DNA from: Escherichia phage NC29
Direction: 5' to 3' (one strand)
DNA length: 6,259 nt
Sequence record: NC_007827.1
The position numbers and the translations under genes are program-made. Under the pieces are notes generated by a model. It made no database searches, was not told the origin of the DNA, and saw nothing but the letters and a program-made list of their open reading frames with translations. Positions 2,323 through 5,281 of the stretch are shown here, in pieces (within the stretch, counting starts at the first letter, position 1; every line of letters begins with the position of its first letter).

Positions 2323-2479
2323 GCAGCTTATGTTTTTGACTAAAGCTGACTTTACCAATGATGATGAAAAATGGCTTAATGCCTTTGGTAATTTGCTCCG
2401 TCAGTGGTTTCAGATTGAGGATTGGAAAGGTAATCACAAAAAATTGCTTGACGATTTGAAAAACAGGCATTATATTTAA
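2273..2479 (+). CDS. C: protein C (DNA replication switch / packaging)
   Basis: ATG 2273 with AGGAG (2261-2265) at 7-nt spacing; 68 aa; ...TKADFTNDDEKWLNAFGNLLRQWFQIEDW resembles phiX174 gpC ...KTDALDEEKWLNMLGTFVKDWFRYESH. The track ORF starts at GTG 2243; ATG 2273 preferred. Confidence 0.8.
   Translation: MLSSTRYYASYRATLTKQLMFLTKADFTNDDEKWLNAFGNLLRQWFQIEDWKGNHKKLLDDLKNRHYI
2448..2476 (+). promoter_or_regulatory. sigma70-like promoter at the 3' end of gene C (pD-like): TTGACG - 17 nt - TATATT
   Basis: -35 TTGACG 2448-2453 (5/6), 17-nt spacer, -10 TATATT 2471-2476 (5/6) overlapping the last codons of C; best promoter match I found in the window; pD lies within C in phiX174. Confidence 0.5.
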
Positions 2480-2712
2480 CTCATAGATAAATGAAGCAGT
2501 GGTGCAAAGTAGTTTATCTAAGTGGTAAGTTCAGTGAAGGGTGACCCGCTCTAAGTAGCTGAAGGGTGTTGGATGTAAGGACTCCGCGATTGACTGGTTT
2601 ATACTGGAACACTATCGGGTCAGTGAAGTGGCTGCTGAGAAATAGCCCTCTAGCTTTACGAAGACTAGGCTACATCGCGAACACCATTGTTACTTTTTTA
2701 TGGAGGATTTAT

Positions 2713-3171
2713 ATGTCTAATCTTGTTGCTACCGATGTTAATTTTGCTACCTCTGTTGCTGCTCTGAAGATGCTTCAGGCTTCTGCTGTTCTTGATATCA
2801 CTGAGGAAGATTTCGATTTTCTGACTGGTGATAAGATTTGGATTGCTACTGACCGCAATCGTGCTCGTCGTTGTGTTGAGGCGTGTGTTTATGGAACGCT
2901 GGACTTTGTTGGATACCCTCGCTTTCCTGCTCCTGTTGAGTTTATTGCTGCCGTCATTGCTTATTATGTTCATCCCGTCAACATTCAGACGGCCTGTCTC
3001 ATCATGGAAGGCGCTGAGTTTACGGAGAACATTGTTAATGGCGTCGAACGTCCGGTTAAAGCCGCTGAACTCTTTGCGTACACCTTGCGTGTTAAGGCTG
3101 GATTCAAAGAAACGGTTCTGAGTGCTGAAGATAATGCTCGTCAGAAACTTCGTGCAAGTGGAGTTATGTAA
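2713..3171 (+). CDS. D: external scaffolding protein D
   Basis: 152 aa; ATG 2713 with GGAGG (2702-2706) at 6-nt spacing; near-identical over long stretches to phiX174 gpD (LQASAVLD.TE.DFDFLT...WIATDR.RARRCVEACVYGTLDFVGYPRFPAPVEFIAAVIAYYVHPVNIQTACLIMEGAEFTEN). Confidence 0.95.
   Translation: MSNLVATDVNFATSVAALKMLQASAVLDITEEDFDFLTGDKIWIATDRNRARRCVEACVYGTLDFVGYPRFPAPVEFIAAVIAYYVHPVNIQTACLIMEGAEFTENIVNGVERPVKAAELFAYTLRVKAGFKETVLSAEDNARQKLRASGVM
2891..3121 (+). CDS. E: lysis protein E (embedded in D, +1 frame)
   Basis: 76 aa; MERWTLLDTLAFLLLLSLLLPSLLIMFIPSTFRRPVSSWKAL... is nearly identical to the phiX174 E N-terminal transmembrane domain, including the conserved Pro21. Confidence 0.85.
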   Translation: MERWTLLDTLAFLLLLSLLLPSLLIMFIPSTFRRPVSSWKALSLRRTLLMASNVRLKPLNSLRTPCVLRLDSKKRF

Positions 3172-3172
3172 T

Positions 3173-3247
3173 ATGAAAAAGGCTCGTCGTTCTCCTTCTC
3201 GTAAGAAAGGTGCCCGTCTCTGGTATGTAGGCGGTTCTCAATTTTAA
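3173..3247 (+). CDS. J: small basic DNA-binding/packaging protein J (24 aa)
   Basis: Hand translation MKKARRSPSRKKGARLWYVGGSQF; the C-terminus KGARLWYVGG.QF matches phiX174 gpJ, while the short 24-aa length is typical of alpha3/G4-type J; starts 1 nt after the D stop. Confidence 0.85.
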   Translation: MKKARRSPSRKKGARLWYVGGSQF

Positions 3248-3252
3248 TTAAT

Positions 3253-3278
3253 GGGCTTCGGCCCCTATAAGGATTTTT
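3253..3278 (+). terminator. cUUCGg tetraloop hairpin in the J-F spacer (T_J-like terminator or mRNA 3' stabiliser), overlapping the F ribosome-binding site
   Basis: GGGC (3253-3256) / TTCG loop / GCCC (3261-3264), then CTATAAGGATTTTT; SD TAAGGA 3268-3273 sits 7 nt before the F ATG. phiX174 has a terminator in the J-F spacer. Confidence 0.35.
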
Positions 3279-3280
3279 AA

Positions 3281-4564
3281 ATGTCAAATGTACAAACTTC
3301 CGCTGAGCGTATCCCTCATGACCTGTCTCATCTGGTTTTTGAAGCAGGCAAAATTGGTCGTTTAAAAGTTGTTTCTTGGACTCCTGTTGTTGCAGGTGAT
3401 TCTTTTGAGCTTGATATGATTGGCGCTATTCGCCTCTCCCCGCTTCGTCGTGGTCTTGCTGTTGACTCTCGCGTTGACTTGTTCACGTTTTATGTTCCTC
3501 ATCGTCATGTATATGGTGAGCAGTGGATTGAGTTTATTAAGGAAGGTGTCAATGCTCCACCGTTGGCTCCTGTTCAGTGCTCTCGTGGTTGGGATAGTGC
3601 GCAGTATCTCGCTACTATTCCGTCTTCTAACTTAAAGGTTCCTAAGTTCCTTCATCAAGGTTACTTGAACATTTACAATAACTATTTTAAAGCTCCGTGG
3701 ATGGATGACTTGACTTATGCCAACCCATCTAATATGGAAGGTGAAGATGTTCGTTTTGGTGTTCGTGCATGTAATTTAAAAACTATCTGGACTGCTCCGC
3801 TTCCTCCAGATACTGAGACTTCTCATTCTATGGAGACCGAGACCAACTCCATTGACATTATGGGTTTACAGGCCGCTTATGCTCAATTACATACCGAGCA
3901 GGAGCGTGATTACTTCATGACTCGTTATCGTGATATTGTTAACGAATTTGGTGGTAGTACTTCTTATGATGCGGATAATCGTCCTTTGCTTGTTATGCAT
4001 TCTGAGTTCTGGGCCTCAGGCTATGACGTCGACGGCACCGACCAAAGCTCTCTCGGTCAGTTCTCCGGTCGTGTTCAGCAGACGTTTAAGCATTCAGTAC
4101 CGCGATTCTTCTGTCCTGAGCATGGCACTATGTTCACACTCGCATTGGTCCGCTTCCCTCCGACTCATGAAATGGAGATGCATTACTTAGTTGGTAAAGA
4201 AAATTTGACTTATACTGATCTGGCTTGTGATCCTGCTTTGATGGCTAACTTGCCTCCGCGTGAGGTTAATATGTCTCAGTTCTTCCATTCTGGAAGTGCT
4301 AGTGCTAAGTTTAAGATCGCTGAGGGTCAGTGGTATCGTATGCAGCCTGACCGCGTTGCATTGCCGTATAACTATCTTGATGGTTTTCCGTTCTATAGTG
4401 CGATTCCGTCTCATGATATTAAGCAGCGTGTTCTGGTTAATACTGATAACTATGATGAGGTTTTCCAGTCTATGCAGCTTGCACACTGGAATATGCAGAC
4501 TAAGTTTAACTGCACGATTTATCGTAATATGCCGACCACTCGTGATTCTATTATGACCTCTTGA
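3281..4564 (+). CDS. F: major capsid protein F
   Basis: 427 aa; long blocks match phiX174 gpF (MSN.QT.AER.PHDLSHL, LRLSPLRRGLA.DS.VD.FTFYVPHRHVYGEQWI, QGYLNIYNNYFKAPWM, SIDIMGLQAAYA.LHT.QERDYFM.RYRD, SYDADNRPLLVM, GYDVDGTDQ.SLGQFSGRVQQT.KHSVPRFF.PEHGTMFTLALVRFPPT, TTRDSIMTS). Confidence 0.95.
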   Translation: MSNVQTSAERIPHDLSHLVFEAGKIGRLKVVSWTPVVAGDSFELDMIGAIRLSPLRRGLAVDSRVDLFTFYVPHRHVYGEQWIEFIKEGVNAPPLAPVQCSRGWDSAQYLATIPSSNLKVPKFLHQGYLNIYNNYFKAPWMDDLTYANPSNMEGEDVRFGVRACNLKTIWTAPLPPDTETSHSMETETNSIDIMGLQAAYAQLHTEQERDYFMTRYRDIVNEFGGSTSYDADNRPLLVMHSEFWASGYDVDGTDQSSLGQFSGRVQQTFKHSVPRFFCPEHGTMFTLALVRFPPTHEMEMHYLVGKENLTYTDLACDPALMANLPPREVNMSQFFHSGSASAKFKIAEGQWYRMQPDRVALPYNYLDGFPFYSAIPSHDIKQRVLVNTDNYDEVFQSMQLAHWNMQTKFNCTIYRNMPTTRDSIMTS

Positions 4565-4570
4565 TTATGT

Positions 4571-4587
4571 GGGGCTTCGGCCCCCTT
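4571..4587 (+). terminator. cUUCGg tetraloop hairpin in the F-G spacer (T_F-like terminator or mRNA 3' stabiliser)
   Basis: GGGGC (4571-4575) / TTCG loop / GCCCC (4580-4584), then CTTT; followed by SD TAAGGA 4588-4593, 7 nt before the G ATG; near-duplicate of the J-F module. Confidence 0.35.
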
Positions 4588-4600
4588 TAAGGATTTGATT

Positions 4601-5146
4601 ATGTTTCAAGTTTATGTAGCTAAGCATGTTGCTCCTTTTACTTCTATGAACCGTACCTTTTCTATCTCTCCTGCTGCTGCCCCGCAGGTTGTCAATTCTG
4701 GTGAGATTGTTGCAGGTCGTTCTACTTTTCGTATTGCTTCCTCTATTGGTTCTGCTTCTAATGGTAATGGTTTCGCATTCGTTCAGATGATGGACCCTAA
4801 CTCTCCTGATTCTCAACAGGTTTTCTCTGTTGCTGCGTCGCTATCTTTTAGTGTTGACTCGAATTATGTTCCTTGCGTTGTTCGTTTTGAAAGTAGTTTC
4901 TCTCAGCCTGGTCAATTTGCTATTGCTGAGGCTGATTTTATTCCGGTTGAGTCGTCAGCTCTTTCTGCTCGTGCGCTTAGCGTTCGTGATTGTGTTACTG
5001 TTGATGTTAAGCCTCGCGCTGAAGGTAATAATGTTTTTGTTGGACTGTTCTTGTCTTCTGCCGCCGCTAATGCTGGTAATGTTACTGGTGTCATTTCTAT
5101 GGCTCAGGTTGACCATGAAGTTACAGCTTTGCAGCCTCTTAAATAA
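4601..5146 (+). CDS. G: major spike protein G
   Basis: 181 aa from ATG 4601 (track ORF starts at TTG 4595); MFQ... N-terminus and CVVRFESS, DCVT.DV.PR..GNNV.VG, and C-terminal LQPLK match phiX174 gpG. Confidence 0.9.
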   Translation: MFQVYVAKHVAPFTSMNRTFSISPAAAPQVVNSGEIVAGRSTFRIASSIGSASNGNGFAFVQMMDPNSPDSQQVFSVAASLSFSVDSNYVPCVVRFESSFSQPGQFAIAEADFIPVESSALSARALSVRDCVTVDVKPRAEGNNVFVGLFLSSAAANAGNVTGVISMAQVDHEVTALQPLK

Positions 5147-5160
5147 AAGGCCGCCGCACT

Positions 5161-5256
5161 CTCGGTTATATGCCTGCCCAGTGTAGGGCGGACCGAGCCG
5201 TACGGAGATACCCGTGAAACTAGGAACGTGGAAGGCGTTAGCCGCCTTCCCTCCTG
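5161..5256 (+). other. candidate complementary (-) strand origin: three consecutive stem-loops in the GC-rich G-H spacer
   Basis: Hairpins: CTCGGT 5161-5166 / ACCGAG 5192-5197 enclosing 5174-5179 / 5186-5191; ACGG 5202-5205 / CCGT 5212-5215; GGAAGGCG 5230-5237 / CGCCTTCC 5243-5250 (perfect 8-bp stem, 5-nt loop); CTG at 5254-5256 just 3' of the last hairpin. G4-type phages prime at a multi-hairpin origin with DnaG alone. Confidence 0.4.
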
Positions 5257-5281
5257 CTAAGCCCAAAGGAGACTTTCAGCT

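What the first reader, a model, noticed from the sequence alone, without database searches (positions are those of the whole stretch)
3248..3280. J-F spacer is a compact hairpin-plus-SD module with a cUUCGg tetraloop
GGGC-TTCG-GCCC (3253-3264) would form in RNA the exceptionally stable C(UUCG)G tetraloop hairpin; it is followed by CTA, the SD TAAGGA (3268-3273) and a T5 run, 7 nt before the F ATG. It can serve as an inefficient terminator or 3' stabiliser for the J-ending transcript while presenting the F SD just outside the stem.
Basis: partly seen in the sequence, partly recalled or inferred. Interest (0 to 1): 0.4.

Follow-up and report, generated by a model that had tools for sequence, protein, structure and literature searches.

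The report
Known phage J–F terminator hairpin
The small GC hairpin with a UUCG loop between genes J and F is this phage's copy of the leaky terminator and mRNA-stabilising hairpin (T_J) already described in phiX174 and G4, so it is real but ordinary.

Summary
GGGC-TTCG-GCCC lies at 3253-3264, followed by TAAGGA (3268-3273), a T5 run (3274-3278) and the F ATG (3281).

The window is a complete alpha3-like microvirus genome, 92.9% identical to coliphage NC3. All 18 distinct Bullavirinae J–F spacers I folded have a hairpin at this position. The stems change by compensatory substitutions, and 17 of 18 keep a C-G-closed tetraloop: UUCG in 14, UACG in 2, CGCG in G4.

It is the ortholog of phiX174/G4 T_J. 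Papers report that element as a weak Rho-independent terminator (20-40% block) whose disruption speeds decay of the transcripts ending there.

Three caveats:
- This copy lacks one G. It is the weakest of the 18, with 4 bp and -7.1 kcal/mol.
- It fails canonical intrinsic-terminator criteria.
- The T5 run is not conserved and is not a U-tract.

Novelty: already known. Interest: low.

Two things noticed in passing:
- A near-identical hairpin-plus-SD cassette sits in the F–G spacer (4571-4584).
- More interesting, about 190 nt (2493-2685) just downstream of the P_D-like promoter is a covariation-supported structured RNA. It has no Rfam match, is absent from other alpha3-like phages, and is shared with Kuravirus and Autographiviridae podophages.

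The parts
3173..3247 (+). Gene J (24 aa DNA-binding protein). Its TAA stop at 3245-3247 lies 5 nt before the hairpin.
   Evidence: Sequence. NC3 gpJ is annotated at the homologous place.
3253..3264 (+). T_J-type hairpin: 5' arm GGGC 3253-3256, loop UUCG 3257-3260, 3' arm GCCC 3261-3264. C3265 is left unpaired because one G of the 5' arm is missing relative to close relatives.
   Evidence: fold. (relatives have GGGGC...GCCCC). (compensatory changes).
3268..3273 (+). Shine-Dalgarno sequence of F (TAAGGA, core AGGA 3270-3273). It lies 5 nt 3' of the stem and 7 nt before the ATG, and is unpaired in the predicted fold.
   Evidence: AAGGA/GAGGA is conserved in 17 of 18 distinct spacers.
3274..3278 (+). 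T5 run in the SD-ATG spacer. It is not conserved and is too far from the stem to be a terminator U-tract.
   Evidence: TTCTT, TTTAT, AAATCC, TACAAAA in relatives.
3281..4564 (+). Gene F (major capsid protein, 427 aa).
4571..4584 (+). Paralogous hairpin in the F-G spacer (T_F position): GGGGC-UUCG-GCCCC. It is followed by TAAGGA (4588-4593) and the G ATG (4601). The cassette architecture matches J-F.
2448..2476 (+). P_D-like sigma-70 promoter (TTGACG-17-TATATT) at the end of gene C. It is the likely start of the D-E-J(-F-G-H) transcripts that reach the hairpin.
   Evidence: consensus scan only. Its position corresponds to phiX174 P_D.

Best explanation
The hairpin is the alpha3-clade ortholog of T_J, the J-F intercistronic element of phiX174 and G4. 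It is transcribed as part of the late polycistronic mRNA from the promoters upstream of B and D. The nascent RNA folds a short all-G/C stem capped by a C(UUCG)G tetraloop just after the J stop codon. A minority of RNA polymerases terminate there. Transcripts that end at the hairpin, by termination or by 3'-exonucleolytic trimming back to it, are shielded from 3'-to-5' exonucleases. D/E/J message therefore accumulates above F/G/H message. Read-through transcripts present the F Shine-Dalgarno sequence single-stranded 5 nt beyond the stem, so F translation is not occluded. Shown here: the structure, its position, its conservation and covariation, and its homology to T_J. Taken from papers on phiX174/G4: termination and stabilisation. 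Inferred: that the same holds in this phage, and the exonuclease-trimming route. In this genome the element is probably a weaker version, with 4 bp, no U-tract and a competing fold.
For: The window is a Bullavirinae (Alphatrevirus) genome, 92.9% identical to NC3 with the same gene order. phiX174 carries GGGGC-TTCG-GCCCC at the same position between J and F, and the G4-like and alpha3-like phages carry variants. All 18 distinct spacers fold a hairpin 4-11 nt after the J stop, with the GGA of the SD 4-9 nt after the stem. In the loop-anchored alignment A4, 5 of 7 pairs show changes on both sides, for example G-C to C-G in NC28, alpha3 and St-1, and G-C to A-U in St-1 and G4. The core five pairs are paired in 68 of 70 cells. 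0 of 500 shuffles reach the observed covariation score, and slid controls score far lower. The loop is UUCG in 14 of 18 and UACG in 2, always closed by C-G, while the stems vary. The RNA fold is -7.1 kcal/mol against -4.0 with DNA parameters. Chance expectation for such a hairpin in this spacer is about 0.0014. For function in the homologs: T_J is a leaky Rho-independent terminator, transcripts ending at T_J are the more stable ones, and disrupting the T_J structure accelerates their decay (PMC3335065). It blocks 20-40% of transcription.
Against: There are no transcript-end or half-life data for this phage or for any alpha3-like phage. The window copy fails the usual intrinsic-terminator criteria. 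It has a 4-bp stem, its tail CUAUAAGG has 2 U in 8, and the scan did not list it. It lacks one G present in all 7 close relatives examined. Its predicted pairing probability is 0.53-0.94 depending on context, against about 1.0 in most relatives, and an alternative pairing with the end of the J coding region wins the MFE in a 76-nt context. In phiX174 a complete mutational scan found only 14.6% of single substitutions across the four terminators detrimental, so the fitness contribution may be small. [quoted passage not shown]
Confidence: 0.8

Rival explanations
1. The hairpin works mainly on translation or 5'-end protection of F mRNA. It would be a structural insulator that keeps the F ribosome-binding site single-stranded and independent of upstream folding, or that protects the 5' end of an F transcript made by endonucleolytic processing, rather than acting on 3' ends.
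For: The stem-to-SD distance is tightly kept (GGA 4-9 nt after the stem in all 18 spacers). The same hairpin-TAAGGA-ATG cassette precedes both F and G in alpha3-like phages. With the weakened stem, an alternative fold pairs the 3' arm and following bases with J coding sequence.
Against: The experimental reports for the homolog concern termination and the stability of upstream, J-ending transcripts. No processing site is known here. The two roles are not exclusive.
Confidence: 0.1
2. The conserved structure is selected in the single-stranded viral DNA, for packaging, J-protein or capsid contacts, protection from SSB, or as a secondary gene A/A* cleavage site, and not in RNA.
For: The + strand is both genome and mRNA sense, so covariation cannot separate the two. 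The DNA fold also predicts the hairpin (-4.0 kcal/mol). In phiX174 the bases just after T_J are described as an extra-origin A/A* cleavage site (PMC3606162).
Against: The phiX174 motif ACTTGAGGATAA after the stem is absent here (CTATAAGGATTT), so that site is not conserved. Loop identity (UUCG/UACG with a C-G closing pair) is conserved while the stems vary. This fits the RNA-specific extra stability of UNCG tetraloops, which to my knowledge is not a property of the DNA equivalent. The experimental phenotypes reported for the homolog are on mRNA.
Confidence: 0.06
3. It is a decaying remnant in this genome. After losing one G, the J-F hairpin no longer works here, and termination and stabilisation are left to the intact F-G copy and later elements.
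For: It is the weakest of 18 homologs, at -7.1 against -9.4 to -16.4 kcal/mol. Its pairing probability is reduced. It has no U-tract.
Against: A 4-bp C(UUCG)G hairpin is still predicted as the spacer MFE, and with probability 0.87-0.94 in 120-200-nt contexts. The competing fold uses J codons that are normally covered by ribosomes. The missing G lies in a homopolymer run and could be a sequencing error.
Confidence: 0.04

Closest known systems
phiX174 T_J (J-F intercistronic Rho-independent terminator / mRNA stabiliser)
   Same: Same genomic position between the J stop and the F SD. Same loop and core stem (phiX174 AGGGGC-UUCG-GCCCCU). The SD lies a few nt after the stem, and the spacers align.
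   Different: This copy has 4 bp instead of 5-6. Its tail is CUAUAAGGA rather than UACUUGAGGA, so it lacks the A/A*-site-like ACTTGA motif and has fewer U. No experimental data exist for this phage.
G4 J-F intercistronic hairpin (studied together with phiX174 by Hayashi, Hayashi and Muller 1983, as cited)
   Same: Same position and architecture. It is the closest relative in F-gene sequence outside the alpha3 clade (about 82% F identity).
   Different: G4 has a 7-bp stem GUGGGAC/GUCCCAC with a CGCG loop and a U-richer tail (UCUAUUUA), at -15.1 kcal/mol. It comes nearer to a canonical terminator.
Generic bacterial 3' stem-loop mRNA stabilisers and leaky intercistronic terminators that set gene-dosage steps within operons
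   Same: It works like them: a stable hairpin after an upstream cistron blocks 3' exonucleases and partially stops RNA polymerase, producing more upstream than downstream message.
   Different: It is much smaller (12 nt), relies on a UNCG tetraloop for stability, and is fused to the next gene's ribosome-binding site within a 33-nt spacer.

Membership tests
Bullavirinae T_J (J-F intercistronic terminator/stabiliser hairpin) | Located in the non-coding spacer between the gene J stop and the gene F start. | tested here: met
   J stop at 3245-3247, hairpin at 3253-3264, F ATG at 3281. Homologous annotation in NC3, alpha3, St-1, G4 and phiX174.
Bullavirinae T_J (J-F intercistronic terminator/stabiliser hairpin) | Sequence homology of the spacer to the phiX174/G4 element. 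| tested here: met
   blastn alignments run through J, the spacer and F into G4-like and phiX174-like genomes. The spacers align around GGGGCTTCGGCCCC.
Bullavirinae T_J (J-F intercistronic terminator/stabiliser hairpin) | G/C-rich stem-loop maintained by compensatory substitutions. | tested here: met
   5 of 7 pairs change on both sides. The core pairs are paired in 68 of 70 cells. 0 of 500 shuffles reach the observed score.
Bullavirinae T_J (J-F intercistronic terminator/stabiliser hairpin) | A fraction of transcripts end at the hairpin (partial termination). | not testable with these tools
   Known only for phiX174. Needs Term-seq or RNA-seq of this phage.
Bullavirinae T_J (J-F intercistronic terminator/stabiliser hairpin) | Disruption of the stem shortens the half-life of the upstream transcripts. 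| not testable with these tools
   Reported for phiX174/G4 insertion and deletion mutants (Hayashi 1983). The primary paper is not held.
Canonical intrinsic (Rho-independent) terminator | G/C-rich hairpin of at least 5 bp. | tested here: not met
   The window has a 4-bp stem and was not listed by the terminator scan. Relatives have 5-7 bp.
Canonical intrinsic (Rho-independent) terminator | U-tract starting within about 2 nt of the stem (at least 5 U in 8). | tested here: not met
   The tail CUAUAAGG has 2 U in 8. The T5 run starts 9 nt after the stem and is not conserved.
C(UUCG)G / UNCG tetraloop hairpin | UNCG loop closed by a C-G pair. | tested here: met
   C3256-UUCG-G3261. Among the distinct homologs the loop is UUCG in 14 of 18 and UACG in 2 of 18.
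C(UUCG)G / UNCG tetraloop hairpin | Extra thermodynamic stability in RNA. | tested here: inconclusive
   Nearest-neighbour prediction gives -7.1 kcal/mol with RNA parameters and -4.0 with DNA parameters. This reflects the parameter tables, not a measurement.

The most novel reading that the evidence does not exclude
The late transcription unit of this phage may have been re-tuned as a whole. It carries a horizontally acquired, roughly 190-nt structured leader RNA (2493-2685) immediately downstream of the P_D-like promoter. In podophages the same RNA sits right after a host-type promoter, and in Autographiviridae it is followed by an rrn-type boxA. This leader could modify RNA polymerase or the transcript, as a put-like processive antiterminator or a 5' stabiliser, and so change how the leaky T_J and T_F hairpins are read. 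The one-base weakening of T_J would then be part of the same adjustment of the D/J : F/G/H expression ratio.
Probability: 0.07. Interest if true: 0.75.

Novelty: already known. Interest (0 to 1): 0.15.

Why it matters
The hairpin itself adds little. It confirms that the T_J design extends to the alpha3/WA13 clade, with a tiny UNCG-capped stem fused to the next gene's ribosome-binding site. It also shows by covariation that the stem is under selection. That is useful for annotation and for phage-genome engineering, but it is not new biology. The comparative data do give a natural allelic series for testing how stem strength sets termination and stability. The series runs over 4-, 5-, 6- and 7-bp stems, UUCG/UACG/CGCG loops, and tails with or without a U-tract. 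The more consequential result came from the surroundings: an unannotated structured RNA, shared between a microvirus and unrelated dsDNA podophages, in the leader of the main late transcript.

Tried and rejected
- **Energy z-scores.** The hairpin is not better than dinucleotide shuffles in 51-76-nt windows, so I did not use energy as evidence.
- **Consensus terminator scan.** It does not list the element, so I rejected filing it as a canonical intrinsic terminator.
- **Public-collection scans for more diverse homologs.** The metagenome and genome scans returned almost only phiX174 spike-in contamination: 95 of 116 loci carry the identical phiX174 spacer. Diversity came instead from IMG/VR and GenBank phage records.
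- **MAFFT alignment of whole spacers.** It misregisters the alpha3 and St-1 loops, so I used a loop-anchored 18-mer alignment for the pair counts.
- **Primary literature.** The Hayashi 1983 paper is not held, so its conclusions are cited second-hand.
- **T5 run as a terminator U-tract.** Rejected, because it is not conserved and starts 9 nt from the stem.
- **A/A* secondary cleavage site, as reported next to phiX174 T_J.** Rejected as a conserved function, because the motif is absent here.
- **Leader RNA, identity searches.** No Rfam match in the window or in 5 homologous loci. No match in E. coli genomes or plasmids. No paper found by motif-string search or by antitermination keywords.

Full report
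**What the window is.** The 6259-nt window is a complete Bullavirinae (Alphatrevirus, alpha3/WA13-like) genome in the usual orientation.
- It matches coliphage NC3 at 92.9% identity over 96% of its length, and 23 other alpha3-like records over at least 80%.
- Its gene order A-B-K-C-D-E-J-F-G-H matches the NC3 annotation.
- Gene D is 2713-3171, J is 3173-3247, F is 3281-4564, and the G ATG is at 4601.

**The observation.**
- The elements are GGGC 3253-3256, TTCG 3257-3260, GCCC 3261-3264, then CTA, TAAGGA 3268-3273, TTTTT 3274-3278, AA, and the F ATG at 3281.
- The J-F spacer is 33 nt (3248-3280).
- RNAfold places the 4-bp C(UUCG)G hairpin in the minimum-energy fold of the spacer: -7.1 kcal/mol, or -7.7 in a 51-nt window.

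**Is it more than chance?**
- Energy alone says nothing. The z-score against dinucleotide shuffles is -0.25, as expected for a 12-nt element.
- Position and recurrence say more. The + strand of the whole window holds only two all-G/C 4-bp stems with 4-nt loops. Both are the same 12-mer GGGCTTCGGCCC, at 3253 and 4572. Both lie a few bases after a stop codon, of J and of F.
- Shuffles give 0.41 such hairpins per genome, or about 0.0014 for a particular 33-nt spacer.

**Comparative evidence.** I collected J-F spacers from IMG/VR contigs, metagenome and genome contigs, and GenBank phage records.
- Most contigs from bacterial assemblies are phiX174 spike-in: 95 loci share one spacer. In all there are 21 distinct spacers, and I folded 18 of them.
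- All 18 form a hairpin 4-11 nt after the J stop. The GGA of the F Shine-Dalgarno sequence follows 4-9 nt after the stem, and the ATG 12-19 nt after it.
- Stems differ between lineages:

| Lineage | 5' arm / 3' arm |
|---|---|
| WA13-like, several G4-like, phiX174 | GGGGC / GCCCC |
| NC28 | GGGCC / GGCCC |
| alpha3 | GGGCCC / GGGCCU |
| St-1 | GAGCCC / GGGCUC |
| NC10 | GGGGGC / GCCCCC |
| G4 | GUGGGAC / GUCCCAC |
| a 62%-F-identity virome contig | AGGGGG / CCCCCU |

- On a loop-anchored alignment (A4), 5 of 7 pairs show changes on both sides and the five core pairs are paired in 68 of 70 cells. 0 of 500 column shuffles reach the observed covariation score, and sliding the partner strand drops pairing from 82.7% to 25-65%.
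- The loop is much less free than the stem. It is UUCG in 14 of 18 and UACG in 2, always with a C-G closing pair. The other two are CGCG (G4, also C-G-closed) and a 5-nt loop.
- Conservation of a UNCG loop over varying stems points to selection on RNA. To my knowledge the extra stability of C(UNCG)G is an RNA property and is not shared by the DNA analogue. The parameter sets give -7.1 kcal/mol (RNA) against -4.0 (DNA).

**What it is.** phiX174 has AGGGGC-UUCG-GCCCCU at the same place. That hairpin is T_J, one of the four Rho-independent terminators T_J, T_F, T_G and T_H that follow genes J, F, G and H.
- The terminators are leaky. [quoted passage not shown] Disruption of the T_J structure accelerates their degradation. 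About 68% of transcripts read through T_J at 37 C (PMC3335065, which cites Hayashi, Hayashi and Muller 1983 on the J-F intercistronic region of phiX174 and G4).
- RNA-seq gives a 20-40% block for T_J, T_F and T_G (bioRxiv 10.1101/2020.03.05.979765).
- A 2026 saturation-mutagenesis preprint annotates the same four terminators. It finds that only 14.6% of single substitutions in them are detrimental.
- The window's hairpin is therefore an ortholog of a described element.

**How it most likely works here.**
1. Late transcripts, probably starting at the P_D-like promoter at 2448-2476 and at an upstream P_B, run through D, E and J.
2. The tetraloop hairpin folds as soon as it leaves the polymerase.
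3. A minority of polymerases terminate. RNAs whose 3' end is at the hairpin resist 3' exonucleases. This step is inferred from the homologs and from general knowledge of 3' stem-loops.
4. Read-through RNAs expose the F ribosome-binding site just beyond the stem.

The net effect is a dosage step between D/J and F/G/H. I rate this explanation at about 0.8.

**Peculiarities of this copy.**
- All seven close relatives examined have a 5-bp stem. The window lacks one G of the 5' arm, which leaves 4 bp and an unpaired C3265.
- It is the weakest of the 18 homologs, which range from -9.4 to -16.4 kcal/mol.
- In a 76-nt context the MFE switches to a fold that pairs the 3' arm and following bases with the last J codons.
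- The pairing probability of the hairpin is 0.53, 0.94 and 0.87 with 30-, 60- and 100-nt flanks. It returns to about 1.0 when the G is restored in silico, and is about 1.0 in most relatives. Ribosomes on J would normally prevent the competing fold.
- The element does not meet canonical intrinsic-terminator criteria. The stem is shorter than 5 bp and the tail CUAUAAGG has 2 U in 8.
- The T5 run starts 9 nt after the stem and is replaced by TTCTT, TTTAT, AAATCC or TACAAAA in relatives. It is SD-ATG spacer, not a U-tract.
- G4-like spacers have U-richer tails and longer stems. Termination is thus probably weaker in the WA13-like clade, and any stabilising role may depend more on trimming than on termination. 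That last point is inference.

**Rivals.**
- A translational or 5'-protective role for the hairpin-SD cassette is compatible with the tight stem-SD spacing and with the second cassette before G. It has no direct support (0.1).
- A role in the single-stranded genome cannot be excluded by covariation, because genome and mRNA have the same sense. However, the A/A*-site-like motif reported next to phiX174 T_J is absent here, and the loop conservation argues for RNA (0.06).
- Loss of function through the missing G is possible but unlikely (0.04).

**Noticed in passing: a twin cassette in the F-G spacer.** The F-G spacer carries TGATTATGT-GGGGC-TTCG-GCCCC-CTTTAAGGATTTGATT-ATG. In alpha3-like genomes the two hairpins match each other within a genome: GGGGC in both in the WA13 group, GGGCC in both in NC28, and GGGCC(C) in both in alpha3. 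This suggests duplication followed by concerted evolution, or a shared constraint.

**Noticed in passing: a structured leader RNA in the C-D spacer.**
- The C-D spacer is 233 nt here against 73 nt in NC3. The extra DNA is absent from all alpha3-like records.
- Positions 2493-2649 are 75-79% identical to unannotated DNA in Kuravirus podophages. The first ~95 nt of that stretch are about 72% identical to unannotated early-region DNA of Erwinia and Klebsiella Autographiviridae. Searching with the Era103 copy adds Ralstonia and Pseudomonas phages.
- A 12-sequence alignment gives a consensus fold of 40 pairs in 8 helices. 98.1% of cells are paired, against 30-42% in slid controls. 30 pairs change on both sides, and 0 of 500 shuffles reach the observed values.
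- All helices are intact in the window copy, which spans 2496-2685.
- There is no Rfam match in the window or in the homologous loci, no match in 5,426 E. coli genomes or in plasmids, and no paper found.
- In most hosts a sigma-70-like promoter lies directly upstream. In the Autographiviridae copies an rrn-type boxA (CGCTCTTTAACAA) follows directly (MR4 is the exception). It does not follow in Kuravirus or here.
- Its function is unknown. Candidates are a cis-acting leader that stabilises the mRNA or modifies elongation. If it modifies elongation, it would act on the same transcripts that meet T_J, which is the basis of the novel case.

**Verdict.** The finding is real, correctly described and correctly interpreted, and it is already known biology. 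Interest is low for the hairpin. The leader RNA at 2493-2685 deserves its own follow-up.

Noticed in passing
window 2480-2712 (core 2493-2685): The C-D intergenic spacer is 233 nt against 73 nt in NC3. The extra ~190 nt is absent from all alpha3-like phages in the collection. It is 75-79% identical over 157 nt to unannotated DNA in Kuravirus podophages, and about 72% identical over its first ~95 nt to unannotated early-region DNA of Erwinia and Klebsiella Autographiviridae; Ralstonia and Pseudomonas copies turn up when the Era103 copy is the query. A 12-sequence alignment supports an 8-helix, 40-pair RNA structure: 98.1% of cells are paired against 30-42% in slid controls, and 30 pairs have compensatory changes. 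There is no Rfam match and no E. coli chromosome or plasmid match. It begins about 10 nt downstream of the P_D-like promoter, so it would be the 5' leader of the main late mRNA. It looks like a new, horizontally mobile structured RNA..
   Followed up: partly
L119 (Era103) ~1295-1500; L120, L123, L124, L126, L127, L129-L133 at the homologous places: In the podophage copies of the leader RNA, a sigma-70-like promoter (TTGACA/TTGACG/TTGACT -35 element, with a -10-like element ~17 nt downstream in several) lies directly upstream in most. In all the Autographiviridae copies except MR4, an rrn-type boxA (CGCTCTTTAACAA or TGCTCTTTAACAA; CGTTCTTTAACAA in Era103) follows within about 10-20 nt of the closing helix. 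Kuravirus copies and the window have no boxA. This suggests a link to host RNA polymerase elongation or antitermination, or protection of a long untranslated leader from Rho.
   Followed up: partly
window 4565-4603 (hairpin 4571-4584): The F-G spacer holds a second copy of the same module: GGGGC-UUCG-GCCCC, then CTTTAAGGATTTGATT-ATG. It is about 80% identical (by eye; not computed) to the J-F spacer. In alpha3-like genomes the J-F and F-G stems match each other within a genome (GGGGC in the WA13 group, GGGCC in NC28 and alpha3). This suggests duplication with concerted evolution, or a shared constraint. G4 and phiX174 have unrelated, longer F-G spacers.
   Followed up: partly
window 3253 (5' arm of the J-F hairpin): There is a one-base difference in a G run: GGG here against GGGG in all 7 close relatives and in this genome's own F-G copy. 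It shortens the stem to 4 bp and lowers the predicted pairing probability. It could be a real attenuating mutation or a homopolymer sequencing error.
   Followed up: yes
window 5147-5281 (G-H spacer): This 135-nt spacer resembles the G4 F-G spacer, which carries the annotated RNA primer site and complementary-strand origin. The shared blocks are AAAGGCCGCC..., GCCTGCCCA.TGT.GGGCGGACCG.GCC.TACGGAGATAC and GCCGCC.TCCCT.CTGC.AAGCC. It is probably the primase-dependent minus-strand origin, placed between G and H in this clade.
   Followed up: no
window 3281-4564 compared with alpha3 and G4: The F protein is 98% identical to WA13-group phages and about 82% to G4-like phages, but only 65.7% to alpha3 itself. 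Yet the genome as a whole groups with alpha3-like phages. This is consistent with past recombination of the capsid gene between clades.
   Followed up: no
L109 (NC3) 2477-2549: The NC3 C-D spacer contains a tandem repeat, AGCTCTCTACATTTG in about 2.5 copies, where the window has the structured-RNA insert. The whole spacer differs, not just an insertion point.
   Followed up: no
L029-L108 (genome contigs) and L015-L028: Dozens of assemblies of unrelated bacteria (Rhodobacteraceae, Clostridium, Mycolicibacterium, Helicobacter and others) contain 5.4-5.5-kb contigs that are phiX174 sequencing-control contamination. One metagenome contig of 328 kb contains many tandem phiX174 copies.
   Followed up: no
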